Of a stretch of 40,000 bases of DNA, positions 6,482-28,906 are shown piece by piece; within the stretch, counting starts at the first letter, position 1, and every line of letters starts with the position of its first letter. Made by a program: the position numbers and the translations under genes. The DNA is taken from assembly GCF_900107395.1 (NCBI RefSeq), contig NZ_FNPW01000001.1, positions 150,074 to 190,073 on the forward strand. Reading direction: 5' to 3'. Source of the DNA: Pseudomonas sp. NFIX28 (GTDB lineage Bacteria > Pseudomonadota > Gammaproteobacteria > Pseudomonadales > Pseudomonadaceae). A model generated the notes under the pieces. That model ran no database searches, had not been told where the DNA came from, and saw only the letters and a program-made list of their open reading frames with translations.

Positions 6482-6555
6482 GGCCGAGTAGCAAAATGGT
6501 TATGCAGCGGATTGCAAATCCGCCTACGCCGGTTCGATTCCGACCTCGGCCTCCA
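6482..6555 (+). tRNA. tRNA-Cys (anticodon GCA)
   Basis: Folded by hand. Acceptor GGCCGAG/CTCGGCC, short D stem GCA/TGC, anticodon stem GCGGA/TCCGC with loop TTGCAAA, T loop TTCGATT, 3' CCA encoded. The T stem GCCGG/CCGAC has one C-A mismatch. Confidence 0.9.
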
Positions 6556-6563
6556 AACTGAAA

Positions 6564-6595
6564 AGCCCGTAGATCAACGATCTACGGGCTTTTTT
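6564..6595 (+). terminator. rho-independent terminator after tRNA-Cys
   Basis: 12-bp stem AGCCCGTAGATC / GATCTACGGGCT with loop AAC, followed by TTTTTT. Confidence 0.85.
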
Positions 6596-6613
6596 ATTGG
6601 CTGGAGGAAAGCA

Positions 6614-6651
6614 GGCGTTCCATTACTTTTAATGGGGCGTTCCATTACTTT
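6614..6651. repeat. tandem direct repeat next to attL (candidate integrase arm-type sites)
   Basis: GGCGTTCCATTACTTT occurs at 6614..6629 and again at 6636..6651 (22-bp period). The second copy overlaps the integrase stop codon. Confidence 0.6.
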
Positions 6652-7694
6652 GATGGCTTTGCAATGGCGCCGATTCGGCGATACACCCGCTTTGTGATTT
6701 CCTGCTCCGAGTGACCCAGCAGCAGGCTGGCATCTGCAATATCGAGGATCTCGGATGCAGCTTTTGGACGAATATCCTTGAACTGAAATTGAGAGATTTT
6801 CTCCGCAATGTCAGGTTTTGCTTCGGCGATCGCCCGAAGTCGAGCCGCCTCCCGGGCATCGTCCCAGCGGTTGCGCAGCATTTGCTGCGACACTCGTTTC
6901 CCGCTCTTGTTGAGGATGAAGTGCTGGCCCCCGTGGTGCCTTGTCCTGCCGGTTATCCTTTGGATGAGTTCACCGAGGCTGTTTTTCTGACCTTCAACCT
7001 CCATCAAAATACGCAACCTCTTGTCCGTCTTCCCTTGGCGAACGAGAAGATAGGCCCCCTCAACATCTCCCTTCTGCATCGCCAGGACATCTGCAGGGCG
7101 CTGGCCGGTCAAGTAGGCCAGGTCCATTGCATCCTTCAATTCGGGTGGTGCTTCGGCGTAGACAGCCGCCCAGACCACGTCATTGGCGTAATAGTCCCTC
7201 GGCTTCTCCTTGTTCTTTCGAACGCCCTGACAGGGGTTCTCCCTGTCGGTGAATCCCCACTCTCTGGCCATGTTGAATACGTGCGATAAAAGCGCGATCT
7301 CTCGATTCGCCCTGGTCTTCGCAACCCTGGCGTCCCGATACTGGGCGATTAGCGATGGGGTAATGGCATCGATCGGGGCGGTGTCGAATCCTGCCCGAAG
7401 GTGCTTCATTTCAGCCTTGTTGTCCTTCTGGGTCCGTGGAGCTTTTTTCGGGACAATGTCCCGCATGTACCGATCAAACACCCCCTTCATTGTCATCAAG
7501 TCGAGCGGCTTGTCCTTCGCCTCAAGTTCAGCCCATTTCATTCTGGCCAGGTCCAGGTCTTTCCCGAGGGGGATATCTTTGCCGGTGGAGTCTCGGTAGT
7601 AGTAAGCCACCCAGACCTTTCCGTTTTTCCTGGTCCTGGATCGTTCGTACATTCTTGGGGGGAGGTGTCGGTTTTCGGTCTTGCGGGGGCGCAT
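6645..7694 (-). CDS. int: tyrosine integrase, lambda-Int type with N-terminal arm-binding domain
   Basis: The N-terminus PRMYERSRTRKNGKVWVAYYYRD is arm-binding-like. The C-terminus has LTGQRPADVL and LLLGHSEQEITKRVYRR (catalytic H...Y region). It is adjacent to a tRNA. Confidence 0.9.
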   Translation of the reverse strand: MRPRKTENRHLPPRMYERSRTRKNGKVWVAYYYRDSTGKDIPLGKDLDLARMKWAELEAKDKPLDLMTMKGVFDRYMRDIVPKKAPRTQKDNKAEMKHLRAGFDTAPIDAITPSLIAQYRDARVAKTRANREIALLSHVFNMAREWGFTDRENPCQGVRKNKEKPRDYYANDVVWAAVYAEAPPELKDAMDLAYLTGQRPADVLAMQKGDVEGAYLLVRQGKTDKRLRILMEVEGQKNSLGELIQRITGRTRHHGGQHFILNKSGKRVSQQMLRNRWDDAREAARLRAIAEAKPDIAEKISQFQFKDIRPKAASEILDIADASLLLGHSEQEITKRVYRRIGAIAKPSK

Positions 7695-11078: not shown

Positions 11079-11347
11079 GGTGCTACGATGGCGCCTTCAT
11101 CAAATTGGGTCGGCCCATGACAAAGCACGATATCTATGACGAGCTGGAAGGATTTCAGCTCTGGAACTACATGGAGTGCGAGAAAGACGAGGAAGGCCGG
11201 GAGACTTGGCGTATCAACGTCGAGGTGAAGCGGGGCGGGGAAGTAGTGGTGCCGGTTGTCGCTGGCGATCGCACATTCCCCGACCGCGGTCTGGCCCAGG
11301 TCGCCGGCCGAGAGCTTGGGGCGAAGTTGCTGGCGGAGCGTGGTTAA
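11075..11347 (+). CDS. hypothetical protein (start uncertain: GTG 11075 or ATG 11117)
   Basis: 90-aa ORF on the strand opposite to the early operon. It converges on and overlaps by 4 nt the end of the C5 methyltransferase gene. Confidence 0.4.
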   Translation: MRCYDGAFIKLGRPMTKHDIYDELEGFQLWNYMECEKDEEGRETWRINVEVKRGGEVVVPVVAGDRTFPDRGLAQVAGRELGAKLLAERG

Positions 11348-13506
11348 GCTGCTCGCGACTGCTGCTCGGTCACTCGCCATGGGTCGTTGGCCCTGGCCAG
11401 CGCCGCCATTGGCGGAGGGCTGACGCTGTTGCCGCACATGTGCACCTGCTGAGTCTTGGTGAACGGCTTGCCGTCGGCGCCGCGGTTGATGATGTAGTCG
11501 GCCGGGAAGCCCTGGGCCTTGTACAGCTCTGACGGCTGCAGCATCCGCAGGCAGATATCGACGATCACGTAAGGGGTGCCCTTGATGGTCACGGTGACCA
11601 GGCCGAGGCGGTCCTTGGTGGTGATAGTTGGCGCCGGTGCGTCGGCCCCACTGATGTTCTCGGTGCCGTAGTAGCTGATCAGGAAGGCCGCGACGCGCAG
11701 GGCGCCGGCTTCGATCTCTGGCGATAACTGCAACTCGACCAGCGAGCTTTTGCCTCCGCCTCCTGCTGTGATGGTGGGGGCTGGTTCGTCCACGGCTTGG
11801 CCGATACTTGCGCCAAACTGGCGCTCCATGAAGGCTGTCATCAGGCCGTGGTGAGTACCGCCGGCGCTGATGGTGTGTAGCGGGTCCGCGGCGTCTCGCG
11901 CATCGCAGTTTCCGCGCAGGTGCACCAGGTTTGCCGTCACCAGCTGCTGCTGGCTGCCGGTGTTGGTTACAGTCGTCATCGGGTCCTCGATGCTCTTGGC
12001 CGCAATGGTGTTGAAACCTCCGTTCATCTGGGCCATGAACACTGTCGAGATGCCCATGGCGTGCGCGGTGCCGGCCGGGCGCTGGTAGTTGCCACCGCTG
12101 GTGATGGTCGGCAACGGATCGTCGAGCGCTTTGCCTTCATCCGCAAACCGGAACTTGACCAGGTGCGCCGCCGCGATCGCGCGGTGGTTCTGGGTCATCA
12201 GCGTCCCGGCCGGCAAATCCACGGAGACCGGCTTGCCGGAGTACTCGGGTCCACCAGCGCCAACCAGCACCGCGCCTGTAAGGGCGTGTTTTACCCCTCC
12301 AGCGACAACAGTGCCCAGAGGCTGGTCGAGTCCTGGCACGCGCGGTTCCTGTCCGGCGCGCTCGCCATATCCGGTCTGGATCAGGGTCGGGCTGATCAGC
12401 GTTAGCTCACCGCGATTCGCGCAGGTGACGGTCGGCAGCGGGGCAGCTGGGTCGTTGATCCGGTCGCTGCCCTGGTGCGTAGCTGGCGCGATGATCGGAC
12501 TTGCCATGGCGAAAGATCCGCCGCGGGGCCAGGATGTCACAGTGCGCAGCGGCTCATGGGCTGACTGCACGCTATCGCCCGACCAGTTCGCAATCGGCAC
12601 GATGAACGGGTCAGCGGCATCGAGGACGAACTTCTTCATGCCCTTGGCGATCCGGCGCAGGGTGGCCGGCGCCAGTGGCTTCGGACGGTCAAAGATGCTT
12701 TTGCTCGGGATGGTCCAATCGATGCACTCGGCAGCGGTGCGCCACTTCTTTTGGTCCTTGGCCGGATTCTTGGCGTGGGTCGGCTCGGGCCAGACGATTG
12801 GCTGGCCGTCACATCGGGCGATCATGAACAGGCGCTCCCGGCTGGTCGGCGCGCCGAAGTCGCAGGCTTTGATCACTCGCCATTCAACGGCGTAACCCAG
12901 ACGCTGCAGCTCGGCGACGAAAACGGCCCAGGTCTGGCCGCGGCGTTTCGGGTTGGGCACCAGGAACTGCTGGTGGACCGGTACAACCTCGCCGGGGGCA
13001 GCTACTCCGCCGCCGAGCTTCACCACGCGGCCGGTGGTCTTGTCGCGCTTGGCCACCAGCGGCCCCCATTGCAGGATCTGCTTCACGTTTTCCAAGCTGA
13101 TGACGCGGGGCTTTTTCTTGCCGGCCCACTTCAGACCGATCCACGACAGGTTCCGGATCTCGCGCTTGCGCGGCTGACCGCCGGCGGCCTGGCTGTGATG
13201 CGTGCAGTCCGGCGACATGTGGAACCAGCCCACGGCCTTGCCGTCGCACTCGGTATCCGGATCTCCGTCGAAAACGTCGGTGGTGTAGTGAACTGCACCA
13301 GGGTGATTGACGGTGTGCATGCTGATCGCGCTGGCGCTGTGGTTCTTCGCGACATTCACCGCGCGGCCCAGACCCATCTCCAGCCCGGTACCGGCGCCGC
13401 CACCACCGCAGAAGAAGTCGACAACGATCTCATCGTCCTGCGTGCTGAAACCAAGTCCGTATTGGGTTTTAAAATCGAAGGGGTGTTTCTTCTGTTGTGC
13501 GGACAT
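11344..13506 (-). CDS. DNA (cytosine-5)-methyltransferase, unusually long (720 aa) with a reiterated target-recognition region
   Basis: Motif I DFFCGGGGAGTG; motif IV SPDCTHHSQAAGG; motif VI ISLENV; motif VIII TSRERLFMIA; motif IX RMLQPSELYKAQGFP; motif X CGNSVSPP. Confidence 0.9.
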   Translation of the reverse strand: MSAQQKKHPFDFKTQYGLGFSTQDDEIVVDFFCGGGGAGTGLEMGLGRAVNVAKNHSASAISMHTVNHPGAVHYTTDVFDGDPDTECDGKAVGWFHMSPDCTHHSQAAGGQPRKREIRNLSWIGLKWAGKKKPRVISLENVKQILQWGPLVAKRDKTTGRVVKLGGGVAAPGEVVPVHQQFLVPNPKRRGQTWAVFVAELQRLGYAVEWRVIKACDFGAPTSRERLFMIARCDGQPIVWPEPTHAKNPAKDQKKWRTAAECIDWTIPSKSIFDRPKPLAPATLRRIAKGMKKFVLDAADPFIVPIANWSGDSVQSAHEPLRTVTSWPRGGSFAMASPIIAPATHQGSDRINDPAAPLPTVTCANRGELTLISPTLIQTGYGERAGQEPRVPGLDQPLGTVVAGGVKHALTGAVLVGAGGPEYSGKPVSVDLPAGTLMTQNHRAIAAAHLVKFRFADEGKALDDPLPTITSGGNYQRPAGTAHAMGISTVFMAQMNGGFNTIAAKSIEDPMTTVTNTGSQQQLVTANLVHLRGNCDARDAADPLHTISAGGTHHGLMTAFMERQFGASIGQAVDEPAPTITAGGGGKSSLVELQLSPEIEAGALRVAAFLISYYGTENISGADAPAPTITTKDRLGLVTVTIKGTPYVIVDICLRMLQPSELYKAQGFPADYIINRGADGKPFTKTQQVHMCGNSVSPPPMAALARANDPWRVTEQQSRAA

Positions 13507-15205: not shown

Positions 15206-16828
15206 TCAAGCTGCCACCTTGACCAGTCTCACGCCGGCCATGCTGAACTTGGCACCCTGAGCTGCGACCATCGCGTCGAGTGCTTCCCAGTCCACCGTCA
15301 GCACCGAAATAGGGGCTTGGCCGTAGGCGACGGCCTTGATCAACGACTCCAGATCGAACACTTCAGCCTGCAGGTTCACCGGCGCCGCAGTGGTGGTCAC
15401 TGGCTTCGTGGCGGACTGAGCCGGTGCGGTGGGTTTCACCGACGCTGGGCTGGCGACTGGTGCAGGCTCAACCGGCGCCCTGGCCTTCGCCTCGTCTTCG
15501 ATTCGCTTCAGTTCCTGTTGGCGGATCTGCTCGCGCTGGGCTTCGGCTTTCTGCTCCTCGGCCTTCTGATGTTCGGAGATCCGCACCTTGATCAGCGCGA
15601 TCAGGTCGTCGTTCGCCTTCATCACCAGCTGCTGAATGTCGTTGAACAGGAAGGCGTGATCGACTGCCAGCTCGGCCAGGCTGGCCAGATTGATGCGGAT
15701 TGCGTCCGCGGTTTGGCTGGCAGCAATTTTCGCTCGAGCCAGCTCGGTATCGACGGCGTCCTGCAGGCTGGCGATCGTGCGCTTGTTCTTCATGGCTCCA
15801 GCGAAGTCAGCCGTCACCGCGGGCAACACAACCCGACCCAGGGTCTTGTTGATCGCTGCGACGTGATCCGCCAGAGCCTGCTCGGCCTTTTGCTTGATGT
15901 TGCTCTTCACCAGCAGCTCTTGGGCTTTCACCAGCTTGTCGACTTTCAGGCGAGTTTCCCGGGCGTGTGCGCAGATGCGATCGAGAGATGAAAACAGCTC
16001 GTCGATGGTCTGGGTTTGCGAGAGAGCCTGTTTCTTCGCAGTGTCGACTGCTTGCTCGACATCGCTGCACCACTTCACAGCCTTCTTGGCGTCGGCGAAG
16101 TCCTGGTCTGTAACCAGCGTGGTCTTCACCGAGTCGATGACAGCCAGCGCCGACTCCTCGAACACCTTTAGGTTGCTCGCAGTGACCATGCCGGTCAGCT
16201 CGATGCGCAGTGCGGGCAGTTCGTCCGGGGCCTTGCCGACAACGATCGACGGCGCCTCGGCCATTTCGAAGTTGGCCAGGTCGGCCTCGAACTGCTTCCA
16301 GCCTTCGACCAGTTGTGCGGCGCGGCCGGCGACAGGCCGGTATTCCATGTGCACGAAGTTCTCGGCGGTGCCGTCAGAGCAAACAAAAATCACGCGTTCG
16401 GCGCCGCTCACCAGCAGCTGCTGCTCAAGCTGCCAGAAGTAGTGCGGCTCCAGCTCCCCGGCCTTCACCTGGGCAACCAGCGACTCGTTCCACAGCTTGT
16501 GCTCGAACAGGGTCTCGCCAAGCATCGTGGCGCCGTCCATGGAGGCCAGCAGTTTGCCGTTGGTGCCCACGACAGGGTAGAGCTCTTCGCCGATCATGGC
16601 CTCGACAAGCGGGCGGGCCAGAGCTTCGGTGGCGTGACCCTTGTCGAAGATGTGTTGTTGAGCTGGGGTGATCTCCGGCGTGATGCCGGTTTTCTTCACG
16701 GTCAGCAGGTCAGTCCGGGTTTGGTATTTCGAGACGCCCATCATGGCGGGGGCCTCGGAGGCGGTGTCGTGCTGGGCGCGGAGGGCATTCCACTCGGCGG
16801 AGCCTTGGACTATGTTGTGAATTTTCAT
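15206..16828 (-). CDS. YqaJ-type (lambda Exo-like) recombination exonuclease with a long C-terminal extension
   Basis: The N-terminus MKIHNIVQGSAEWNALRAQHDTASEAPAMMGVSKYQTRTDLL is the YqaJ signature. Its start overlaps the end of the upstream RecT gene. Roughly 340 residues follow the nuclease domain. Confidence 0.8.
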   Translation of the reverse strand: MKIHNIVQGSAEWNALRAQHDTASEAPAMMGVSKYQTRTDLLTVKKTGITPEITPAQQHIFDKGHATEALARPLVEAMIGEELYPVVGTNGKLLASMDGATMLGETLFEHKLWNESLVAQVKAGELEPHYFWQLEQQLLVSGAERVIFVCSDGTAENFVHMEYRPVAGRAAQLVEGWKQFEADLANFEMAEAPSIVVGKAPDELPALRIELTGMVTASNLKVFEESALAVIDSVKTTLVTDQDFADAKKAVKWCSDVEQAVDTAKKQALSQTQTIDELFSSLDRICAHARETRLKVDKLVKAQELLVKSNIKQKAEQALADHVAAINKTLGRVVLPAVTADFAGAMKNKRTIASLQDAVDTELARAKIAASQTADAIRINLASLAELAVDHAFLFNDIQQLVMKANDDLIALIKVRISEHQKAEEQKAEAQREQIRQQELKRIEDEAKARAPVEPAPVASPASVKPTAPAQSATKPVTTTAAPVNLQAEVFDLESLIKAVAYGQAPISVLTVDWEALDAMVAAQGAKFSMAGVRLVKVAA

Positions 16829-17712
16829 ACCGGCTCACCTTCAATCGGCGCGAGGCCTTGGATGGTTTCGATCTGCTGATCGGTCAGGGTGTACTTGCTG
16901 GCGATGGTCGCGATGACTTTCTCGGGTGTTGACCGGCCCGCGTCGATCGCGGCGCGCCATTTCGGCAGGTTCTCGGCGAGCTTGTCGTCGGGGTAATCGG
17001 GGAGTTCGTCGGGAGAGGCTGTCGGGCGTGGTGAAACGTCGCGGACAGCTGGTGCGCTTTCTTCGAGCTCGTCTGGGCTGTATACGCCTAGGATCACGTC
17101 CGGGCAGTAGAGGCGCGACCAGCGTTTGGTGGCCAGGTAGGCCAGTTGCTGGCGAGGATCGTCCGCCCAGAGCGTGCTGTTGCGGGTGCGGGCCTGGGCC
17201 AGAAGCAGCTCAAGGACGCGCGGTTCGTCCTCGCCGCGGAAGGTGGCCCAGACCTTTACGCCTAGACCTTGCTCGTCCTCCAGCTTCCAGCCCGGGACGC
17301 GGTACTCGCCCTTGTCGCCGTTCTTGATGGTGAACTGTCCGATCACCTTCTCCCAGGCTCCGAACCACTCATAGTGCAGGCGATCCATCACCGGTGCGCA
17401 GGTGGTAATGACTGCGTTGACCAGCTGAGCCTCATAGCCAAGGACGCCGTTGACCAGGTGCGTTTTCTGGGCCACCGCAAATGGATTCATCTTCCACTGC
17501 ATCGATTGCATGACGACCGCCAGACAGTCCGCAGGGTTTCCGTTGAAGTGCTTCGGTAATGTGGCGCGGCCGGTGGCCATGACTTCGGCCAGGCGCATCA
17601 TCTTGTCCAGGCTGTCGCCGTCCAGTACCAGAGCACTGGTGCTGGTTGCTGCGTGAGGAAGGACGTGAAGATTTCGATCGTGCGCCACCGGCGCCACGCT
17701 TTGTGCGGACAT
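16825..17712 (-). CDS. recT: RecT-family single-strand annealing protein
   Basis: PADCLAVVMQSMQWKMNPFAVAQKTHLVNGVLGYEAQLVNAVI is RecT-like. It is paired with a YqaJ exonuclease. Confidence 0.8.
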   Translation of the reverse strand: MSAQSVAPVAHDRNLHVLPHAATSTSALVLDGDSLDKMMRLAEVMATGRATLPKHFNGNPADCLAVVMQSMQWKMNPFAVAQKTHLVNGVLGYEAQLVNAVITTCAPVMDRLHYEWFGAWEKVIGQFTIKNGDKGEYRVPGWKLEDEQGLGVKVWATFRGEDEPRVLELLLAQARTRNSTLWADDPRQQLAYLATKRWSRLYCPDVILGVYSPDELEESAPAVRDVSPRPTASPDELPDYPDDKLAENLPKWRAAIDAGRSTPEKVIATIASKYTLTDQQIETIQGLAPIEGEPV

Positions 17713-21759: not shown

Positions 21760-22620
21760 CTAAGCCGCCTCTTTGGAAGCGCTTACGGCTTGTTGGAGTT
21801 TGATGAGCAGTATTGTGGGGAGGCTGACCTCTGGCCCCGAGCTATTCAGGCATCCCTCAGGCAACGCTTTGAAGATTTCCTGCGCCGCTGCGCGGATTGC
21901 TTCGAGCTGCTGGCGTGGTGTGGTCGGGCCGCGCATCGATCCCGCGGTCACCTTTGACTTCCCGGTGGCCTTGGCTTTTTGCAGTTCTCCACCGAGGACC
22001 TTGCCTGCGTTCTCGCCATGCTGGCGGACGACTTGAACAGCCGTTGTCGCAGAGACCTGGCCTGAGGCGACCAATTGCTGCACGTCGGTGTTTGCATTGC
22101 CGAGCGTCATCACCTGCTCAACATGCTGGCGGGTCTTGCCGACCTTTTTTGCGATCTGATCAGGTGTCCAGCCGAACGCCGTGAGCCGCTTGTAACCGTC
22201 GGCCAGCTCAAGAGGAGAGAGCTTCTTTCCTTCCTGGCTGGTGATGACCCTGGCGACACGTTCGGCGTCGTTACCCTCGAAGGGGACAATCGAGATCCAG
22301 GCCTCTAAGCGCTTTGGGTCATCTTTGCTCGGCACCCTTGGAAGTCGTCCCGCCTGGTCGAGCTTCAAGTAGGCGCGACGACGGCGATGGCCATCGACAA
22401 CCCACATTCCACCCTCAGCGCGAGGTCGAACCTCCAGTGCCGGGATCTGGCCGCCGGCGAAGATGAACTCAGCCAGAGCATCAATACTTTCTTCCAGCTC
22501 TTCGCCTTCGGCTCGAAGGTTGAAGCCGGGTTCTTCGTAGAGATCCTCCAGGCGCGCCTTCATTGCGTCGGCACGTTTCAGATCCCCGTCCTTGATCATT
22601 TGCTTGAAAGACTTGGCCAT
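21760..22620 (-). CDS. ParB-like nuclease/partition domain protein with central HTH
   Basis: ORF 21760..22728 trimmed to the ATG at 22620. VVDGHRRRRAY is the ParB/Srx box. PDQIAKKVGKTRQHVEQVMTLG is an HTH. Confidence 0.75.
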   Translation of the reverse strand: MAKSFKQMIKDGDLKRADAMKARLEDLYEEPGFNLRAEGEELEESIDALAEFIFAGGQIPALEVRPRAEGGMWVVDGHRRRRAYLKLDQAGRLPRVPSKDDPKRLEAWISIVPFEGNDAERVARVITSQEGKKLSPLELADGYKRLTAFGWTPDQIAKKVGKTRQHVEQVMTLGNANTDVQQLVASGQVSATTAVQVVRQHGENAGKVLGGELQKAKATGKSKVTAGSMRGPTTPRQQLEAIRAAAQEIFKALPEGCLNSSGPEVSLPTILLIKLQQAVSASKEAA

Positions 22621-22720
22621 GCAATTTATTTCCAAGTGGTTGTCATCCCAAGCAGCCCTCGCGAGAAGGCTGCTCAGTGATGCTTTCCGCCGTGACCCGC
22701 TACTGGCGTCGGTCACTGGC

Positions 22721-22846
22721 TCAATCAAGTTGTTCCTCCAGCCGCGGGCCTTTCGGCTTGTTCTCCCGCTGGATAACTGTTCTTGGCGCTTTACGCTGCA
22801 CGCCCGGGTCAGTTGCCAACCCTCTGAACCGTTGAGGCCGGTTCAT
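22721..22846 (-). CDS. hypothetical 41-aa arginine/lysine-rich peptide, first ORF after the leftward early promoter
   Basis: Own translation: MNRPQRFRGLATDPGVQRKAPRTVIQRENKPKGPRLEEQLD. Weak SD (AAGG). Confidence 0.25.
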   Translation of the reverse strand: MNRPQRFRGLATDPGVQRKAPRTVIQRENKPKGPRLEEQLD

Positions 22847-22946: not shown

Positions 22947-22986
22947 AAAGTAGCAGTGCTGCTATTTAATGTAAATAGCGCTGCTA
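22947..22986 (-). promoter_or_regulatory. leftward early promoter (PL-like) with two operator sites (OL-like)
   Basis: On the minus strand, TTTACA (22970..22975), 17 nt, then TACTTT (22947..22952). The operator-like 14-mers TAGCAGTGCTGCTA (22951..22964) and AAATAGCGCTGCTA (22973..22986) match the sites between cI and cro. Confidence 0.6.
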
Positions 22987-23005
22987 ATAATATTTTTTGA
23001 GAGCG

Positions 23006-23030
23006 AAAAAAAGCCCGCTCAGTGGCGGGC
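23006..23030 (-). terminator. rho-independent terminator closing the cargo operon
   Basis: The minus strand reads GCCCGC-cactga-GCGGGC followed by seven T. It sits just before the PL-like promoter. Confidence 0.75.
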
Positions 23031-23223
23031 TCTCGTGGACTGAATTAGCTAGCCCTAGCAAGGGGTCGGCACTAGGGACGGGATAGGCTGGCGCTGAGCG
23101 CGAGGCGGGCTGGGGTAGGGCCTCAGAATGAAAAGCATGGTGTCTGTCATGCCTGGGCGGGACACAGGCAACAAGAAAGCCCGCGCAGGGTGCTTCCCCG
23201 CTATGTCTCGCGAGCGGGGCGCT

Positions 23224-23697
23224 TCAGGTGTGAATTATGAGCGTCTGTAGATACCCGCTCTCATCGAATAGGACCGGGTATCTACCCCCATCAATCAGCG
23301 AGCGCAACTGTTGGGAATGACTGGATTGCCTAAATGCAATCTGGCACTCGGCAGCATCAAAGAATCGTCTCAGATGGGGTAAGGCAAGATAGAGTGCAGA
23401 CTGGTCGACTCTCAACGAGAAACTAACTATATCCAGTTGATCGGTTAGATCTCGATACAGGTCCATGACTAGGAAGCTTTCATTTTCAGCGGACGGATAG
23501 ATGTGGACGTCACCAGCACCAACAGGTGTGTCGTCGAAGTAGGTATCGTACAGCTCAGTAATGTTGAGCGCGATTCCCATAGCCTTCAAAGCTACTGCTA
23601 GATCAGCGTTGGGGATGTGCTCGTCCTCTGCCCATGTGACGAAGTCAGGCATTGAAACGCAGATGTCGAACTCATTGGCGCAGATGATAGGGGGCAC
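23224..23697 (-). CDS. hypothetical acidic cytoplasmic protein (cargo island)
   Basis: 157-aa ORF in AT-rich DNA. The start is uncertain (GTG 23697 or ATG 23652) and neither has a clear SD. Confidence 0.5.
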   Translation of the reverse strand: MPPIICANEFDICVSMPDFVTWAEDEHIPNADLAVALKAMGIALNITELYDTYFDDTPVGAGDVHIYPSAENESFLVMDLYRDLTDQLDIVSFSLRVDQSALYLALPHLRRFFDAAECQIAFRQSSHSQQLRSLIDGGRYPVLFDESGYLQTLIIHT

Positions 23698-23822
23698 TGA
23701 AGGCTTGTCCGGTCAGAGTTGTGGGCGCTGATCGTACCACCCCTGTGAGCCGTTTCTCTCATGGGGCGAATATGGTGTGGTTTGATGGATGAGTCACCAA
23801 CTGGATTGGCAGGGAAGGGCGG

Positions 23823-23850
23823 AAAAAAAAGCCCGGCGCTGGACCGGGCT
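23823..23850 (-). terminator. rho-independent terminator
   Basis: The minus strand reads AGCCCGG-tccagcg-CCGGGCT followed by eight T. Confidence 0.8.
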
Positions 23851-23864
23851 GACTGCGCATGAGT

Positions 23865-24284
23865 TCAGTTTGGTTTGCAGGTCGTTCGGTACTTTCCGTT
23901 TGGAAGGTTGTCAGCGAAAATATGGCAAGATTTTTGATACTCATTGTTTTTGTATACTTTAGCAGTAAGGTGCACAGATGAATTCTCAGCCTCTCCCCCT
24001 TTGTGCCAGAGATTACGCTTCAGATAAAGGTTTGTGTTCCCAATAGATTCGAAGCCATTTTTTATGGAGTCGTGACTCGAATTTTTAAGTGCAAAATCGA
24101 CTGTAGGTCTTTTTTCAGGCAACGGTGTGATATCTCTCTGGGCTTGAGTGATTAGGGCATAATCATTACATTTATTTGTCTCGGGATCGTCTTTACACAC
24201 ATAAACATCTGCTGTTGAGTTTGTGGAAAAAGCTGTGAGCCATAGTACTGATGTTATTTTCAGTAGAGATTTAATTTGGTTCAT
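23865..24284 (-). CDS. secreted/periplasmic hypothetical protein with signal peptide and four cysteines
   Basis: First in-frame ATG at 24284. MNQIKSLLKITSVLWLTAFSTNSTA|DVYVC looks like a Sec signal with an A-x-A-like cleavage site. Very AT-rich. Confidence 0.6.
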   Translation of the reverse strand: MNQIKSLLKITSVLWLTAFSTNSTADVYVCKDDPETNKCNDYALITQAQRDITPLPEKRPTVDFALKNSSHDSIKNGFESIGNTNLYLKRNLWHKGGEAENSSVHLTAKVYKNNEYQKSCHIFADNLPNGKYRTTCKPN

Positions 24285-24440
24285 TGGAGTCCATCCCAAT
24301 TGCAGTGCGATAGATGATTAATGCTGGGCAAAGCCTACCTTGGATTTGCCAGCAATAACTCTAGCCCATGATCCAGGTATTCGCCTGTAAAATTCGTGTG
24401 ATGTTGCGATTCTAATTAGTTAAGTACCTGCACGGCGCAC

Positions 24441-24462
24441 AAAAAAGCCCGGCGCTGGCTTG
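24441..24462 (-). terminator. weak terminator sharing an 18-nt block with the 23823 terminator
   Basis: AAAAAAGCCCGGCGCTGG at 24441..24458 is identical to 23825..23842. Only a 5-bp stem (AAGCC/GGCTT) remains, followed by a T run on the minus strand. Confidence 0.4.
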
Positions 24463-24463
24463 C

Positions 24464-24928
24464 TTACCGAGACATAGACTTTTTGCAAATGCTAATTATT
24501 GCAAGGCTAATAAAAAGCACTTGAGCCATGCTGTTCATTGATAACACAAGTGCGCACCGCATGAATAAGTGTGCTGATGTTGCGGAGAGAGACATAATCG
24601 AGAAAATAAACGTGGCAGCCAGAGTGGCAATGCAATAGAAGTACATGGCGAAAAATACATCTAAATATTTGTTTTTCTTATAGTTCTGAAATGCCCTGGA
24701 TTGAGAGAAATTGAGTAAAATGGCGATGACCGCAGCAAGGAAGCCGAGCATGGTAAATGCATAAGATGCAATTATTGCAGCCAGTTCCTTTCTGTTTGAA
24801 TACAAACTAAATGATAAGTCAATATTGTAGGCTGTAAGTGCTTTGTAGCTCGCAAGCAAGATCGGACCAGGAGCTGACATTATTGAAATGTAAAAAACGA
24901 CTAAAATCAGCCTTGTCAGTTTGTCCAT
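24464..24928 (-). CDS. RexB-like four-helix membrane protein
   Basis: 154 aa from the ATG at 24928 (GAGG upstream), with four predicted TM helices. It has the same size, topology and position relative to cI as lambda RexB. The block ASYAFTMLGFLAAVIAILL corresponds to the lambda block SSYAGTMIAILIAALTFLI (from memory). Confidence 0.65.
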   Translation of the reverse strand: MDKLTRLILVVFYISIMSAPGPILLASYKALTAYNIDLSFSLYSNRKELAAIIASYAFTMLGFLAAVIAILLNFSQSRAFQNYKKNKYLDVFFAMYFYCIATLAATFIFSIMSLSATSAHLFMRCALVLSMNSMAQVLFISLAIISICKKSMSR

Positions 24929-25778
24929 CTTCAATAAACGCCTCTAACTGTTCCTTTAGTTTTGCATTCTCTCTGATTTTCGTTTCCATGATTTCAGAAA
25001 TAACGCTTTCTTCGTAGTTGCCGAGATCGTCCGAGATGACCCCGCGTCCTACCACATAAAGGTCGAGCATAGCAGACTTCGCATCATTTTTCGCTTTCAT
25101 TACCAGCTTTTCGACACCCTGGTCAGACGTCGCGCTCACCAGTCTCTGAACCACAGGCTTTATGCTTCGCCCCTTGATGGGTTTCAATGTTATCTCAAGT
25201 GAGTCTAGATCATCTATATCTCCTCCAGCGCTTATAACATTGAGGATGTTTTGAGCCAGAGAGTTTTCTTTTTTAACTTCAATTGTGGTTTTTCCAATGA
25301 AGTTCATTTTAACCGCTTCATCTCGTGTTGCTTGATGTATAAGCGGATGTATGCAGAATGACCAGCTCCCATTGTTTGTATAGGTTAGTAGCGTGTTAAT
25401 CATTTCGCAAAATGTGTCAAACTTTGGAGAAAGAGAGGATGACGCGAAGCCGAAGAAGTTGTTCTTTATGATAAGGTAGGAGGCAAATCCGACCTTTTCA
25501 TCTTGCCCAAGGAATTGCTTGAACTCTCCAATTGACATGCTTGAAGTATCAATTTTCTTAAATGTTTCCGCGTCCCGCGTCATTGCCAGTACGCAAACGT
25601 TTCCAGCTAACCTCTGCAAGTATATGTTTTCAGAGTTGTGCTTAAAGCTACCCTTTAGGGTGGGGTCTTGGCATTCCGCAAAAGAAAGTATAAATCTTGA
25701 CAAGTCAAATAGATGTTTTCCGTAGTGTAGCTTGTGGCTTAGATAATATCCGTAATAACTAATTCTCATCGAATCCAT
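24819..25778 (-). CDS. RexA-like protein
   Basis: 319-aa soluble ORF downstream of cI. Colinear blocks DEKVGFASYLII..FFGFA, MNFIGKTTIEV and LDSLEITLKPIK correspond to lambda RexA DESLGFPSFLFV..TIGFA, MHFIGRTTVKV and FDSLDIVIKPKF (from memory, not searched). Confidence 0.65.
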   Translation of the reverse strand: MDSMRISYYGYYLSHKLHYGKHLFDLSRFILSFAECQDPTLKGSFKHNSENIYLQRLAGNVCVLAMTRDAETFKKIDTSSMSIGEFKQFLGQDEKVGFASYLIIKNNFFGFASSSLSPKFDTFCEMINTLLTYTNNGSWSFCIHPLIHQATRDEAVKMNFIGKTTIEVKKENSLAQNILNVISAGGDIDDLDSLEITLKPIKGRSIKPVVQRLVSATSDQGVEKLVMKAKNDAKSAMLDLYVVGRGVISDDLGNYEESVISEIMETKIRENAKLKEQLEAFIEDGQTDKADFSRFLHFNNVSSWSDLACELQSTYSLQY

Positions 25779-25875
25779 TCCGTAATTTTGTAGGTGCCTG
25801 CCTGGGTTGCGTTATTTAGATAATCTACGAGATCACTATGCAGTCATTCCCCCGCAAATCCTTCCTGCCTCCAAC

Positions 25876-26040
25876 TCATCCGCGCGCTGCATAGAACTGG
25901 TTCAGCGCTATCAGCTCAATAACAGCCACCATCACGCAGAATGCAACAAAGCCTCGAGTGAAGACCCTGCGAGGCTTTTCGTAAGGCTGGATGTTAGCGA
26001 GACCGCCGAGAAGGTCGGATAAAAAGTCGAGCAGCCCCAT
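25876..26040 (-). CDS. hypothetical 54-aa single-helix membrane peptide
   Basis: Own translation: MGLLDFLSDLLGGLANIQPYEKPRRVFTRGFVAFCVMVAVIELIALNQFYAARG. GAGG lies about 13 nt upstream. It sits between cI and the RexA-like gene. Confidence 0.3.
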   Translation of the reverse strand: MGLLDFLSDLLGGLANIQPYEKPRRVFTRGFVAFCVMVAVIELIALNQFYAARG

Positions 26041-26323
26041 CACCCATCAGCCTCGCTGTTAATACGCCCAGCCTTCAGCTGGGGCGTGCACGTTTCAATG
26101 AAGAGCCCTGCGGCTTTCGCCAATCCTAATCCGATCCAGTGCCCGGTTTAGCGCGTCCAGGGCATCGAGAAGGGCTTTAGCCTCAGCCTCTCGTCCGTCA
26201 CCTCAAAGTCGCTCAGCCATTTTGTTGAGGACCTGGATGGATCGCTCAATGTCAGCAGCAGTAGCTGCCTTGGTATCTGTCGGCTGCTTCTTCGTCATTC
26301 AATACTTCCGCGGCGCAGGGTGG

Positions 26324-27112
26324 TCAGCGCGAATACATCGCCCACCAGAACACATGACCCAGGATAGAAATGTGCTGCTCCTGGATTTGCTGGAAGGTGT
26401 AGTCCTCGTCCGGGTGCTCGTCACGGTTAAAGCTGCGCAGGCGAATCCCGATCGGGATGCGGTAGACCTGCTTCACGCGCAATTGGCCGTTGTGGTTGAT
26501 GGCGTACATCTCACCGTCGACGATATCGCTCAGGGAGTTTTTCCCTACGTTCACGCCTACGGTGGCGCCGTCACGCAACACGGGCACCATGCTATTGCCG
26601 CCAACCCTCACACACTTCGCGTTGCTGAACTGAACGCCGTTGTGGCGCAGATCTTTTTTGTTGAAGCGCAGACGCGAGTTGGCGCTTTCCTCAATCGCAA
26701 ACCTGCCAGATCCGGCTGCCAGTTCTACTTCATGGAGGAAGGGGACGTAGACCTCATCATCATCGAGCGGTGTTTCGTCGTCCCAAGTCTCGATACTTCC
26801 TAATTTTACGCTTGGCTGTATGCGGTCCTGCTGCACGCTGGCAACAGTGGATAACAGTCGAGAGCTGACCTCGCTTGCATCAAAGTTGAGCGCCTTTGCG
26901 AGCTTCAGCAGTGCTTCCACATTTAGTGGCACCTTCCCGGTGGCGTATTGGCTGAATGCACTTTGCCCAGACCATCCGCACGCTTCGGCAACGTCAGCCT
27001 GCGTCAGGTTACGCCCGGCAGCTTTTGCAGCTGATTTCCGCTGTTCGTAGATAGCTTTGAGCCTGGCGCTCTCGGCGACTTCTTCGGGGGTGAGGGGGCG
27101 ACGTATTTTCAT
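26324..27112 (-). CDS. cI: CI-type prophage repressor (XRE HTH plus S24/LexA-like autopeptidase)
   Basis: HTH LTQADVAEACGWSGQSAFSQYATGKVPLNVEALLKLAKAL. The C-terminal domain has GGNSMVP (Ser nucleophile) and GQLRVKQ (Lys). Confidence 0.9.
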   Translation of the reverse strand: MKIRRPLTPEEVAESARLKAIYEQRKSAAKAAGRNLTQADVAEACGWSGQSAFSQYATGKVPLNVEALLKLAKALNFDASEVSSRLLSTVASVQQDRIQPSVKLGSIETWDDETPLDDDEVYVPFLHEVELAAGSGRFAIEESANSRLRFNKKDLRHNGVQFSNAKCVRVGGNSMVPVLRDGATVGVNVGKNSLSDIVDGEMYAINHNGQLRVKQVYRIPIGIRLRSFNRDEHPDEDYTFQQIQEQHISILGHVFWWAMYSR

Positions 27113-27126
27113 ACGAATAAGAGTAT

Positions 27127-27198
27127 TAGCAGAGCTGATATCCGAGCAAACAGCGCTGCTAGTATTTTATTGCTGATAAAAAACAGCGCTGCTACTAT
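27127..27198. promoter_or_regulatory. OR-like operator cluster with divergent PR-like and PRM-like promoters
   Basis: Sites TAGCAGAGCTGATA (27127..27140), AAACAGCGCTGCTA (27148..27161) and AAACAGCGCTGCTA (27181..27194). The rightward promoter is TTGCTG (27170..27175), 17 nt, then TACTAT (27193..27198). Confidence 0.65.
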
Positions 27199-27228
27199 CA
27201 ATGGCAGATATCAAGCCGTGGAAACTCC

Positions 27229-27432
27229 ATGAAAAAGATCCCTTTGAGCAAATACCTAGAAGAGCACGGCACTCAAGCCGCGCTTGCCGCTGCTCTCGGC
27301 GTGAACCAGAGCGCGATCTCGCAAATGGTTCGAGCCGGCAGAAGCATCGAAATCACCCTTTATAACGACGGGCGTATTGAGGCGAATGAGATTCGTCCGA
27401 TCCCGGCACGCCCCAAGCGCACAGCAGCCTGA
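27229..27432 (+). CDS. cro: Cro-type HTH regulator
   Basis: 67 aa, divergent from cI. HTH TQAALAAALGVNQSAISQMVRAG. Confidence 0.8.
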   Translation: MKKIPLSKYLEEHGTQAALAAALGVNQSAISQMVRAGRSIEITLYNDGRIEANEIRPIPARPKRTAA

Positions 27433-27513
27433 GGCAGTCATTGCTTACTGCCTGAGCAAATGATCGCCCACGCACTGGCAGGGCGCCACGGAAACAGAAT
27501 TGAGGTTTTACGA

Positions 27514-27936
27514 ATGGAAGATTTTCTCCGGTCCTGCCAGAGCGCTGTGCTGGGCAACGAGGCCAAGGCCCTGGCTGCGAAGATGGGCGTTCCCCATGTC
27601 AGCCTGCTGCAGCGCGCCAACCCAGACAACGACGCTCACCACCTAACAGTCGAGCATCTGTTTGGGATTCTGCTGCACACCGGCGACATGCGGCCGCTGA
27701 CGGCCTTGGCCAACGAGTTTGGCTTTGACCTGGTGGCGCGGACTCCCCCTAAACCCCAGGCCTTGACCAGGTCCCTGATCAATGTAGGCAAGGAAGTGGC
27801 TGATCTGACGATCGCGGTACACGAAGCCCTAGGCGACAACCACGTCAGTGCTTTCGAGAAATCCCTGATCCGCCAAGAGATCGACCATGTCCGACACAGC
27901 CTCGACGTGATGGATGCGTCGGTAAAGGCCGCTTGA
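27514..27936 (+). CDS. phage regulatory CII-family protein
   Basis: ORF 27460..27936 trimmed to the ATG at 27514 (GAGG upstream). FLRSCQSAVLGNEAKALAAKMGVPHVSLLQRANPDNDAHHLTVEHLFGILLHTGD fits my memory of the CII/CP76 family. It is positioned after cro. Confidence 0.65.
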   Translation: MEDFLRSCQSAVLGNEAKALAAKMGVPHVSLLQRANPDNDAHHLTVEHLFGILLHTGDMRPLTALANEFGFDLVARTPPKPQALTRSLINVGKEVADLTIAVHEALGDNHVSAFEKSLIRQEIDHVRHSLDVMDASVKAA

Positions 27937-27937
27937 A

Positions 27938-28906
27938 ATGCAATTCACCATCACGATCAACCAGGTGAAGGCGCTCGAGTGGGGGCTGAATTCTCAGCAG
28001 GCCCTGCTGTTCGCCTTCATCTACGGCTGCCCGAGCTGGACCAAGCCGGTTAAGACCGACGATGGGATCTTCTTCGCGCTGAGCAAGGCCAAGATCGTCG
28101 AGGAGCTGCCGCTTCTCACTGACAAGCCGGACACTGCCTATCGCATGCTGAAGGTCCTGGACGAGGCCGGCTTAATTGAGCTTTCCAGTACTTCGAACAT
28201 CACGCTTTTCCGGCTGACCGAGAAGGCCGTCGAGTGGAACCAGAAGCTTGATGGGTCGGAAAAATATCCGACCCCGCCAGAAAACAAAGGTCGGAAGAAA
28301 ATCCGATCTACCTCGGAAAAATCTCCGAGCAAGATCGGAAGAAAATCCGAGCGAGGGTCGGAAAAAAATCCGACAAATCAGGATACCAATCATCAGGATA
28401 CCAATCAGGGTACCAGTATCAGTTCTACGCCCCAGGCTGCCGCCAAGGTCGCGACGGGGCAAATCGTTGCATTCGCTCCCCAGCAACCACGGTGCGAGAT
28501 TCCGGCCGACATGCCAGGGCCGAAAGACCAGGCCTGCAAGACCTTCAAGACCTGGGCGAACTACGCCATGGCCTACCGCAAGCGCTACAGCACCTGGCCG
28601 GTGTGGAACGGAACGGTCGGTGGCCAGATCGGAAAGCTCATTGATCGCCTCGGCATCGACGTTGCCCACCACGTCGCCGCGTACTACCTGACCATCGACG
28701 ACTCGCGACTGATCAACGGTTGCCACAGCATCGGCGACCTGCTGGCCAAGGCCGAGGGCTACCACACCCAGTGGGCCACCAACCGCCGCATGAACTCGAC
28801 CACTGCCCAGCAAATCGAGCGCAAGCAAGCGAACCTCACCGCGGGCCAGGACGCTGCCAATCGCATCATCCAGCGAGCAGGGGGGCAGCCAAATGAATTC
28901 CTCTGA
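27938..28906 (+). CDS. replication initiator (lambda O analogue) containing the origin iterons
   Basis: Winged-helix-like N-terminus. It lies in the replication-module position and has an internal array of dyad-symmetric iterons, as in lambda O/ori. Confidence 0.65.
   Translation: MQFTITINQVKALEWGLNSQQALLFAFIYGCPSWTKPVKTDDGIFFALSKAKIVEELPLLTDKPDTAYRMLKVLDEAGLIELSSTSNITLFRLTEKAVEWNQKLDGSEKYPTPPENKGRKKIRSTSEKSPSKIGRKSERGSEKNPTNQDTNHQDTNQGTSISSTPQAAAKVATGQIVAFAPQQPRCEIPADMPGPKDQACKTFKTWANYAMAYRKRYSTWPVWNGTVGGQIGKLIDRLGIDVAHHVAAYYLTIDDSRLINGCHSIGDLLAKAEGYHTQWATNRRMNSTTAQQIERKQANLTAGQDAANRIIQRAGGQPNEFL
28253..28373. repeat. five iterons (TCGGA-N5/6-TCCGA dyads): candidate phage replication origin
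   Basis: GGGTCGGAaaaataTCCGACCC 28253..28274; TCGGAagaaaaTCCGA 28291..28306; CTCGGAaaaatcTCCGAG 28312..28329; TCGGAagaaaaTCCGA 28335..28350; GTCGGAaaaaaaTCCGAC 28357..28373. The last four are spaced 22 bp apart. Confidence 0.75.

What the first reader, a model, noticed from the sequence alone, without database searches (positions are those of the whole stretch)
24464..25778. Diverged RexA/RexB-like two-gene exclusion module in the lambda rex position
Seen in sequence: a 319-aa soluble ORF and a 154-aa four-helix membrane ORF lie downstream of the CI repressor on the same strand. They sit in DNA that is visibly AT-richer than the GC-rich phage backbone. The island lies between an OL-like and an OR-like operator cluster, which is the lambda layout OL-rexB-rexA-cI-OR. 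From my memory of lambda RexA, three colinear blocks match: DEKVGFASYLII..FFGFA, MNFIGKTTIEV and LDSLEITLKPIK here, against DESLGFPSFLFV..TIGFA, MHFIGRTTVKV and FDSLDIVIKPKF in lambda. The membrane ORF matches RexB in size and topology and shares one block. Identity is low, so automated annotation would probably call both genes hypothetical. Inference: this is a lysogen-expressed abortive-infection or exclusion system in a Pseudomonas-like host. Its trigger and spectrum there are not known to me.
Basis: partly seen in the sequence, partly recalled or inferred. Interest (0 to 1): 0.8.

Follow-up and report, generated by a model that had tools for sequence, protein, structure and literature searches.

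The report
Pseudomonas prophage RexA/RexB exclusion genes
A Pseudomonas prophage carries true but distant relatives of phage lambda's RexA/RexB phage-exclusion genes, next to its repressor gene as in lambda; this is a new member of a well-known defence family, with one unusual detail: the two genes overlap by 110 bases.

Summary
ORF 24819..25769(-) is a RexA. Evidence: Pfam PF15969 E 1.3e-53, PADLOC RexA 9e-72, phmmer to the lambda RexA structure 8TWQ E 4.6e-23, and an AlphaFold model whose top Foldseek hit is 8TWQ at E 1e-16. ORF 24464..24928(-) is a four-helix RexB. Evidence: PADLOC 3e-28 and hhalign to lambda RexB at 95% probability over 137 columns; Pfam scores it just below its cut-off.

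The genes lie downstream of an S24/HTH CI repressor, opposite cro/cII. They sit between three OR-type and two OL-type operators, in a 40-44% GC island within a 55-65% GC Pseudomonas prophage.

About 30 relatives (Pseudomonas spp., Azotobacter) keep the order cI, then rexA, then rexB. NCBI calls all of them "hypothetical protein". Both genes are under strong purifying selection.

Unlike lambda, RexA here is a 316-aa long form. Its conserved 36-residue tail is encoded out of frame inside the first 110 nt of rexB, and both frames are constrained. Function was not tested here. A more distant RexAB-type system in P. putida was shown experimentally in 2026. Verdict: a new member of a known kind, of modest interest.

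The parts
27127..27194 (.). OR-like cluster of three operator palindromes (27127-27140, 27148-27161, 27181-27194) between cI and cro
   Evidence: Pattern search (0-3 mismatches to TAGCAGCGCTGTT) and repeat family D1
27229..27432 (+). cro (67 aa), divergent from cI
   Evidence: Pfam Cro PF09048 E 2e-16
26324..27112 (-). CI-type repressor (262 aa, HTH + S24 autopeptidase)
   Evidence: Pfam Peptidase_S24 2e-18 and HTH_3/HTH_31; PHROG transcriptional repressor 8e-46
25876..26043 (-). 55-aa ORF with one hydrophobic segment. It travels with rexAB as the 5' end of the shared 1.64-kb module
   Evidence: phrog_29612 E 3e-10. 91% aa identity in L006/L007; the C-terminal 30 aa are 67% identical in L008/L009. 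Module boundary at 26080
24819..25769 (-). rexA, long form (316 aa; the maximal ORF starts at 25778)
   Evidence: Pfam RexA 1.3e-53, PADLOC RexA 9e-72, PDB 8twq 4.6e-23, Foldseek 8twq_B E 1e-16. Start position taken from homolog lengths
24464..24928 (-). rexB (154 aa, four transmembrane helices)
   Evidence: PADLOC RexB 3e-28, PHROG RexB-like 1.7e-5, Pfam RexB 22.2 bits (below GA 27), BLASTP to lambda RexB 2e-7, hhalign 95.3%. Hydropathy and AF2 model. The ATG is conserved in all clade members
24819..24928 (-). 110-nt dual-coding overlap: the RexA C-terminal tail (codons 281-316) and RexB residues 1-37 (TM1) in another frame
   Evidence: Same overlap in 9 relatives. Third-position identity rises from 0.38 to 0.63. 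Only 2 differences in 108 nt against L007, compared with 9-10% elsewhere
24445..24461 (-). Weak hairpin plus T-run directly after the rexB stop; a partial copy of the terminator at 23830-23850
   Evidence: Pattern scan. The fold is not better than shuffles (dG -8.3, z +0.9). 25-nt repeat D3
23865..24284 (-). 139-aa ORFan with a signal-peptide-like N-terminus, inserted behind rexB in the same low-GC island
   Evidence: No family in Pfam, PHROGs, PADLOC or NCBIfam. Only hit is a 100% match in Pseudomonas sp. NFIX28. Insertion inferred
23830..23850 (-). Strong intrinsic terminator after the ORFan
   Evidence: dG -14.8, z -2.0
23224..23697 (-). 157-aa ORF of unknown family between the island and OL
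   Evidence: no significant family hit
23005..23031 (-). Strong hairpin plus T-run just upstream of OL, in the position of lambda t_imm
   Evidence: Read in the sequence; dG -16.8, z -3.2. Not listed by the scan
22951..22986 (.). OL-like cluster of two operator palindromes (22951-22964, 22974-22986) overlapping a leftward promoter-like TTTACA-17-TACTTT

Best explanation
This is a RexAB-type two-component phage-exclusion (abortive-infection) module carried as a low-GC cargo cassette in the immunity region of a lambdoid Pseudomonas prophage.

**Shown.** The 316-aa protein is a member of the RexA family and the 154-aa protein is a four-helix RexB homolog. They sit directly downstream of cI on the same strand, and no strong terminator lies between cI and rexB. 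Both genes are under strong purifying selection.

**Inferred from lambda** (Parma 1992 and Snyder & McWilliams 1989, from my own knowledge; PMC11077077; PMC12894663). The genes are co-transcribed with cI in the lysogen. Cytoplasmic RexA is a dimeric, non-specific DNA-binding protein whose basic K-A-K motif, equivalent to lambda R219/K221, is conserved. It senses a product of superinfecting-phage replication or recombination and activates RexB in the inner membrane. RexB then dissipates membrane potential, ATP falls, growth stops and the infection aborts.

**Specific to this lineage.** RexA has a conserved helical C-terminal tail that is encoded inside the first 110 nt of rexB in another frame. 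I infer that this overlap fixes the RexA:RexB translation ratio, which is critical for Rex function in lambda and in P. putida.
For: **Family membership**
- RexA.
- RexB.

**Context**
- CI, Cro and CII are identified.
- The operator clusters are shown.
- The order cI, then 0-3 small ORFs, then rexA, then rexB, opposite cro, holds in eight independent Pseudomonas/Azotobacter prophage loci that carry different repressors.
- The pattern scan finds no minus-strand terminator between cI and rexB.

**Selection (window against L007)**
- rexA: 69 synonymous against 4 non-synonymous codon changes.
- rexB: 32 synonymous against 2 non-synonymous.

**Conserved functional residues**
- Lambda R219/K221 (essential for DNA binding, PMC11077077) align with the nearly invariant K225-A226-K227.

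**Overlap**
- The rexB ATG sits at rexA nt 842 in all clade members.
- No codon position in the overlap is free to vary (0.60/0.66/0.63, against 0.69/0.79/0.38 outside).

**Functional precedent in the genus**
- P. putida RexABpp protects against phages and damages membranes in a RexB-dependent way (PMC12894663).
Against: - No experiment bears on this locus, and its trigger and spectrum are unknown.
- Pfam RexB is below its curated cut-off (22.2 against 27 bits).
- Foldseek of the RexB model against viral structures found nothing significant.
- The RexA model is of moderate confidence (pLDDT 75). Its TM-score to 8TWQ is only 0.50-0.54 with rmsd 7 Å; a different domain orientation is a possible reason, but I did not test that.
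- Co-transcription with cI is inferred only from the absence of a predicted terminator.
- P. putida RexABpp is a much more distant lineage, so its phenotypes transfer only by analogy. It matches lambda RexA only at HHpred level, and its RexB has at least 181 residues (a Y181H substitution is reported).
Confidence: 0.85

Rival explanations
1. The pair mainly serves the prophage's own lysis-lysogeny switch rather than exclusion. RexA would bind DNA or the repressor and bias the switch toward lytic growth after induction, with RexB modulating this. This role has been reported for lambda RexA/RexB.
For: The genes sit inside the immunity region, next to cI, in every relative examined. The DNA-binding K-A-K motif is conserved. 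[quoted passage not shown]
Against: The same cassette (98.7% RexA identity) is combined with three different, poorly related repressors and operator sets. A function that depends on a specific CI or operator partner is therefore unlikely. The low-GC, horizontally exchanged cassette looks like cargo. The two roles are not mutually exclusive.
Confidence: 0.1
2. The logic is reversed, as in mycobacteriophage Butters. The RexA-like cytosolic protein would be the toxic antiphage effector, and the membrane RexB-like protein would only sequester it.
For: PMC12894663 summarises that Butters gp30/gp31 works this way. A solitary RexA homolog without rexB exists in Acinetobacter chromosomes, so RexA can be kept on its own.
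Against: The sequences here are colinear homologs of lambda RexA and RexB. RexB is as strongly conserved as RexA. In lambda and P. putida the membrane protein is the effector.
Confidence: 0.04
3. The genes are a decaying remnant with no current function.
For: The prophage may be cryptic. NCBI annotation calls the proteins hypothetical, and gene callers often miss or truncate rexB.
Against: The reading frames are intact in all relatives. Synonymous changes far outnumber non-synonymous ones (69:4 and 32:2), and the overlap is constrained in both frames.
Confidence: 0.01

Closest known systems
Phage lambda RexA/RexB (and the near-identical modules of phage 434, SfI, Hafnia yong1 and Klebsiella ST101-KPC2phi6.1)
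   Same: RexA is homologous (27% identity over 263 aa, E 2e-26) and RexB is homologous (28% over 88 aa by BLASTP; 137 aligned columns by hhalign). The gene order cI-rexA-rexB between OR and OL is the same. RexB has four transmembrane segments. RexA has the same two-domain fold (8TWQ is the top structural hit). The basic DNA-binding pair is conserved.
   Different: RexA is 316 aa here against 279 aa, with a conserved helical tail (W301; helix 298-313). rexB starts 110 nt inside rexA, whereas lambda has a 15-nt gap. A 55-aa ORF precedes rexA, and two extra ORFs lie between rexB and OL. The host is Pseudomonas. I found no evidence for an internal rexB promoter of the lambda P_LIT kind.
P. putida prophage P1 RexABpp (PP_5643/PP_5644; PMC12894663)
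   Same: The genus is the same. It is a prophage-encoded pair of soluble and four-TM membrane proteins downstream of a CI-like repressor, with small ORFs in between. Its antiphage function and RexB-dependent membrane damage were shown experimentally.
   Different: According to the paper, RexApp matches lambda RexA only by HHpred (E 3e-5) and RexBpp has no detectable homologs of known function; a Y181H substitution shows that RexBpp has at least 181 residues. The proteins here are recognised directly by Pfam, PADLOC and BLAST, and RexB is 154 aa. They are therefore a different lineage, closer to lambda. I could not obtain the PP_5643/5644 sequences to compare directly.
Actinobacteriophage Rex-like pairs (Sbash gp30/gp31, CarolAnn gp44/gp43, Butters gp30/gp31)
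   Same: They are two-gene prophage defence modules made of a cytosolic protein and a four-TM membrane protein, expressed from the lysogen.
   Different: I saw no sequence-level relation here. An uncharacterised Sbash protein appeared only as a non-significant structural match (E 1.3). Butters uses the reversed logic.

Membership tests
RexA (Pfam PF15969 / PADLOC RexA) | Significant match to the curated family profile over its full length | tested here: met
   Pfam 182.4 bits (cut-off 25), profile positions 1-234 of 235. PADLOC 9.2e-72, positions 1-263 of 267. PHROG 12654 at 2.4e-35
RexA (Pfam PF15969 / PADLOC RexA) | Direct sequence homology to lambda RexA | tested here: met
   phmmer against 8twq_A E 4.6e-23. 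BLASTP 27% identity over 263 aa, E 2e-26
RexA (Pfam PF15969 / PADLOC RexA) | Two-domain RexA fold (split globular domain plus dimerisation domain, PDB 8TWQ) | tested here: met
   AF2 model with pLDDT 75. Foldseek top hits are 8twq_B/A at E 1e-16, probability 1.00, TM 0.50-0.54; the next hit is at E 9e-3
RexA (Pfam PF15969 / PADLOC RexA) | Basic residues needed for DNA binding (lambda R219/K221) | tested here: met
   They align with K225/K227, which are nearly invariant in 23 relatives. Residue roles are taken from PMC11077077
RexA (Pfam PF15969 / PADLOC RexA) | Dimerisation and non-specific DNA binding in vitro | not testable with these tools
   Needs purified protein (SEC-MALS, EMSA)
RexB (Pfam PF15968 / PADLOC RexB) | Match to the curated family profile | tested here: inconclusive
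   Pfam 22.2 bits, below the gathering cut-off of 27 (E 2e-4). PADLOC RexB 3e-28 over positions 8-140 of 141. PHROG RexB-like 1.7e-5. Relatives carry precomputed PF15968 hits
RexB (Pfam PF15968 / PADLOC RexB) | End-to-end homology to lambda RexB | tested here: met
   hhalign of the 14-sequence alignment against lambda RexB: probability 95.3%, E 2.2e-8, 137 columns (7-148 against 4-140). BLASTP E 2e-7
RexB (Pfam PF15968 / PADLOC RexB) | Small inner-membrane protein with four transmembrane helices | tested here: met
   Four hydrophobic segments. The AF2 model (pLDDT 82) has long helices at 3-34, 46-73, 88-112 and 119-153
RexB (Pfam PF15968 / PADLOC RexB) | Structural match to a RexB model or structure | tested here: inconclusive
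   No solved RexB structure exists. The best BFVD hit is at E 1e-2 to an uncharacterised protein. The afdb50 library was unavailable
RexAB system (lambda-type exclusion module) | rexA immediately followed by rexB, downstream of and co-oriented with the prophage repressor, inside the immunity region | tested here: met
   The arrangement is conserved in relatives
RexAB system (lambda-type exclusion module) | Both proteins required for exclusion of superinfecting phage, with RexB-dependent membrane depolarisation | not testable with these tools
   Needs EOP assays and membrane-potential or ATP measurements

The most novel reading that the evidence does not exclude
Long-form RexAB, seen here and in Azotobacter, Desulfobacterales and Desulfurellales relatives, may be mechanistically distinct from lambda's system in how the sensor and the effector are coupled. 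On this reading, the conserved helical RexA tail is encoded out of frame within the codons for RexB's first transmembrane helix and acts as a functional coupling element. It would set the RexA:RexB translation ratio through the overlap, or dock RexA onto RexB, or both. Lambda's 279-aa RexA with separate cistrons would then be a derived, tail-less form.
Probability: 0.25. Interest if true: 0.5.

Novelty: new member of a known kind. Interest (0 to 1): 0.3.

Why it matters
Rex was the first abortive-infection system to be discovered, yet its trigger and the way RexA activates RexB remain unresolved. The P. putida paper counts only five described Rex-like systems.

This locus belongs to a Pseudomonas/Azotobacter lineage that is clearly homologous to lambda RexAB, unlike the far more distant P. 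putida RexABpp. It lives in a genetically tractable genus, and phage collections exist for at least one species of that genus (the P. putida CEPEST set). That gives a second, independent setting for studying trigger and stoichiometry.

The conserved dual-coding overlap offers a concrete handle on the ratio dependence long known from lambda genetics.

There is also a practical point. PGAP-style annotation labels both genes hypothetical, and gene callers often miss or truncate rexB because of the overlap. Surveys based on called proteins may therefore under-count RexAB.

Tried and rejected
- **NCBIfam.** It gave no RexA or RexB match for these proteins.
- **Close phage relatives.** Megablast of 23000-28000 against deposited phages matched only the cII segment of two Pseudomonas phages. 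tblastn with RexA found only 19 enterobacterial-type records at about 27% identity and no Pseudomonas phage.
- **Species-representative genomes.** The scan gave only four loci. Most relatives came from exact-protein look-ups instead.
- **RexB structure.** There is no PDB relative. BFVD Foldseek found nothing significant. The afdb50 library was not available.
- **Lambda P_LIT-like promoter inside rexA.** Promoter-like sites were not enriched (7 found against 4.7 ± 2.0 expected). Synonymous sites just upstream of the overlap show no extra conservation (third-position identity 0.32-0.48). I rejected the idea as unsupported.
- **Terminator directly after rexB.** The pattern match folds no better than shuffled sequence, so I downgraded it to a weak or partial hairpin.
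- **The 139-aa and 157-aa ORFs as further system components.** They have no family hits, and neither has a tblastn match in any relative's locus. I treat them as separate cargo.
- **Rfam.** It finds only the tRNA-Cys gene.
- **Direct comparison with P. putida PP_5643/PP_5644.** This was not possible because the sequences were not retrievable with the tools.

Full report
**1. Observation**

The minus strand carries a 319-aa ORF at 24819..25778. It also carries a 156-aa ORF (TTG start) or 154-aa ORF (ATG start) at 24464..24934/24928. Upstream on the same strand is a 262-aa protein with HTH and Peptidase_S24 domains, a CI-type repressor, at 26324..27112. A Pfam-Cro protein (27229..27432) and a CII (Phage_CP76, 27460..27936) are divergent from it.

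GC falls to 0.38-0.45 across about 23800-25900, against 0.55-0.65 on either side.

A 13-nt palindrome, TAGCAGCGCTGTT, occurs with 2 or fewer mismatches only in two places. One is 27127-27194, with three sites in the cI/cro intergenic region. The other is 22951-22986, with two sites overlapping a leftward promoter-like TTTACA-17-TACTTT. The described layout is therefore real. It differs from lambda in having a 55-aa ORF between cI and rexA, and two further ORFs between rexB and OL.

**2. Identity**

*RexA*
- The 319-aa ORF matches Pfam RexA at E 1.3e-53 (182 bits, cut-off 25, full model length).
- It matches PADLOC RexA at 9e-72 and the PHROG 'RexA-like exclusion protein' at 2.4e-35.
- phmmer finds the lambda RexA crystal structure 8TWQ at E 4.6e-23. 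BLASTP gives 27% identity over 263 residues, E 2e-26.
- An AlphaFold2 model built from 23 relatives (pLDDT 75, pTM 0.65) has 8twq_B as its top PDB hit by Foldseek: E 1e-16, probability 1.00, TM 0.50-0.54. Nothing else scores below E 9e-3.
- Lambda R219 and K221, whose double mutation abolishes DNA binding (PMC11077077), align with K225 and K227. These are nearly invariant in the clade.

*RexB*
- The membrane ORF matches PADLOC RexB at 3e-28 and PHROG 'RexB-like' at 1.7e-5.
- Pfam RexB scores only 22.2 bits, below the cut-off of 27.
- A 14-sequence profile aligns with lambda RexB end to end: hhalign probability 95.3%, E 2e-8, 137 columns.
- It has four hydrophobic segments, and its model consists of long helices (pLDDT 82).
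- Structural comparison for RexB was uninformative.

**3. Relatives and context**

The large protein collection holds 32 RexA clusters and 17 RexB clusters of this lineage. Those with a source name come from Pseudomonas spp. or Azotobacter salinestris, apart from one distant Acinetobacter RexA cluster, and NCBI names all but that one 'hypothetical protein'.

I examined eight Pseudomonas/Azotobacter prophage loci: L006-L008, L010-L012, L015 and L003. In each, the order is an S24 repressor, then 0-3 small ORFs, then rexA, then rexB, opposite cro and next to lambdoid replication and Nin genes. Gene callers skipped or truncated rexB in several loci, but tblastn finds it in all of them.

The window shares a 1.64-kb module with L006 and L007, at 24442-26080. 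It contains the 55-aa ORF, rexA, rexB and the trailing hairpin. Nucleotide identity is 86-97%, while protein identity is 98.7% for RexA and 97.4% for RexB. The flanks, including cI, are different. The cassette is therefore exchanged between lambdoid prophages that have different immunity specificities. Together with the low GC, this marks it as horizontally moving cargo.

Selection is strongly purifying. Between the window and L007, rexA shows 69 synonymous against 4 non-synonymous codon changes, and rexB shows 32 against 2.

Deposited phage genomes contain RexA only in enterobacterial-type records, at about 27% identity to this one. The exhaustive profile search finds 289 clusters at 50% identity among 1.84 billion representative proteins, so the family is rare. 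Most full-length hits are 300-331 aa.

The window itself is a prophage. A tRNA-Cys gene lies at 6482-6555, followed by an integrase at 6645..7694. A RecT/YqaJ recombination module and a C5 DNA methylase are also present. The 139-aa ORFan behind rexB has a single 100% match in Pseudomonas sp. NFIX28, which is probably the source genome.

**4. What differs from lambda**

In lambda, Hafnia phage yong1 and Klebsiella phage ST101-KPC2phi6.1, RexA is 279 aa and rexB starts 15 nt after the rexA stop.

Here, and in every member of the Pseudomonas clade, RexA is 316 aa (323 in one case). The rexB ATG (M-D-K/R...) lies at rexA nucleotide 842. The last 36 codons of rexA and the first 37 of rexB therefore share 110 nt in different frames.

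Both frames are constrained:
- Pairwise identity by rexA codon position is 0.69/0.79/0.38 outside the overlap and 0.60/0.66/0.63 inside it.
- Between the window and L007, the overlap has 2 differences in 108 nt, against 9-10% elsewhere.

The tail contains a nearly invariant tryptophan (W301) and is modelled as a helix at 298-313 with pLDDT above 80.

Distant long-form relatives in a Desulfobacterales MAG and a Desulfurellales MAG also overlap rexB, by 68-125 nt. Overlap plus tail may therefore be the commoner form, and lambda's arrangement the derived one. This last point is inference.

**5. How it most likely works**

By homology, the module is a lysogen-expressed exclusion system. The pattern scan finds no minus-strand terminator between cI and rexB. 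The hairpin right after rexB is weak (dG -8.3, z +0.9). Strong terminators follow the ORFan (23830-23850) and precede OL (23005-23031). I therefore infer a cI-orf55-rexA-rexB transcript from the maintenance promoter, possibly reading into the ORFan gene.

The steps from sensing to abortion are taken from lambda and P. putida work (PMC11077077, PMC12894663, and classical genetics from my own knowledge). RexA senses infection. RexB is activated in the membrane. Depolarisation, ATP loss and growth arrest follow. None of these steps was tested here.

Because Rex activity depends on the RexA:RexB ratio in both studied systems, I propose that the overlap sets that ratio translationally. This is a hypothesis.

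**6. Rivals**

- A primary role in the prophage's own switch is possible as a second function. It is hard to reconcile with one cassette serving three unrelated repressors.
- Butters-type reversed logic is unlikely given colinear homology to lambda.
- Pseudogenisation is excluded by the selection pattern.

**7. Novelty and verdict**

However, Pfam, PHROGs and PADLOC already recognise the pair, and a RexAB-type defence has been demonstrated in P. putida. That system is more distant: it matches lambda RexA only at HHpred level, and its RexB has at least 181 residues (PMC12894663).

This is a new, untested member of a known family. The conserved dual-coding overlap and the RexA tail are a modestly novel structural detail. 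Interest 0.3.

Noticed in passing
window 23818-24458 (ORF 23865..24284, minus strand): A 139-aa ORFan with a signal-peptide-like N-terminus and four cysteines lies between two copies of a 25-nt repeat (23818-23842 and 24434-24458, 92% identical). The repeat is the 3' half of a terminator. In L006/L007 the sequence after rexB continues like the window sequence after the ORFan terminator, so the ORFan looks like an insertion behind rexB. Its only database match is 100% identical, in Pseudomonas sp. NFIX28.
   Followed up: partly
window 25876-26043 (minus strand): A 55-aa ORF with one hydrophobic segment (phrog_29612, E 3e-10) sits directly upstream of rexA. It moves with the rexAB cassette in L006/L007 (91% aa identity). 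Its C-terminal 30 residues are conserved upstream of rexA in L008/L009, but it is absent in L010 and L015. It may be an accessory component.
   Followed up: partly
L013 and L014, 6001-6945: A 314-aa RexA homolog in Acinetobacter (28% identity) stands alone without rexB. Its context is chromosomal and not a prophage: it lies between an EamA transporter gene and NYN/gatCAB genes. The index lists it in 53 blocks of the collection. One source names it 'putative exclusion protein'.
   Followed up: partly
L006 8839-9306, L012 6842-7303, L015 6839-7306, L009 1680-2138: Gene callers missed rexB or truncated it (95-139 aa instead of 152-154 aa) in several assemblies. The likely cause is its 110-nt overlap with rexA. 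Surveys based on called proteins would under-count complete RexAB pairs.
   Followed up: yes
window 24442-26080 compared with L006 7687-9328 and L007 2916-4557: The same rexAB cassette is combined with three different CI repressors (262, 240 and 288 aa) and with different downstream cargo: an Imm_superinfect gene in L006, a 218-aa ORF in L007, and the ORFan here. This is mosaic exchange of a defence cassette between immunity regions.
   Followed up: yes
window 23224-23697 (minus strand): A 157-aa ORF between the low-GC island and OL has no significant match in Pfam, PHROGs, PADLOC or NCBIfam, and no tblastn match in any of the fetched relatives' loci.
   Followed up: no
window 6482-7694, 11344-13506, 15206-17712, 21760-22728: These features define the prophage frame. 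A tRNA-Cys gene lies next to a lambda-type integrase. There is a 720-aa protein with a C5 cytosine methylase domain and a YqaJ/RecT recombination pair. A 322-aa ParB-HTH protein is the first gene of the leftward operon, where lambda has N.
   Followed up: partly
L005 471-2673: In a Desulfurellales MAG contig, a long-form rexA (319 aa) is followed by an overlapping 155-aa rexB-like ORF that carries the TATFSFTILGFLATV motif. A DNA methyltransferase-like ORF comes next. This shows the overlapping architecture well outside the Pseudomonas clade.
   Followed up: partly
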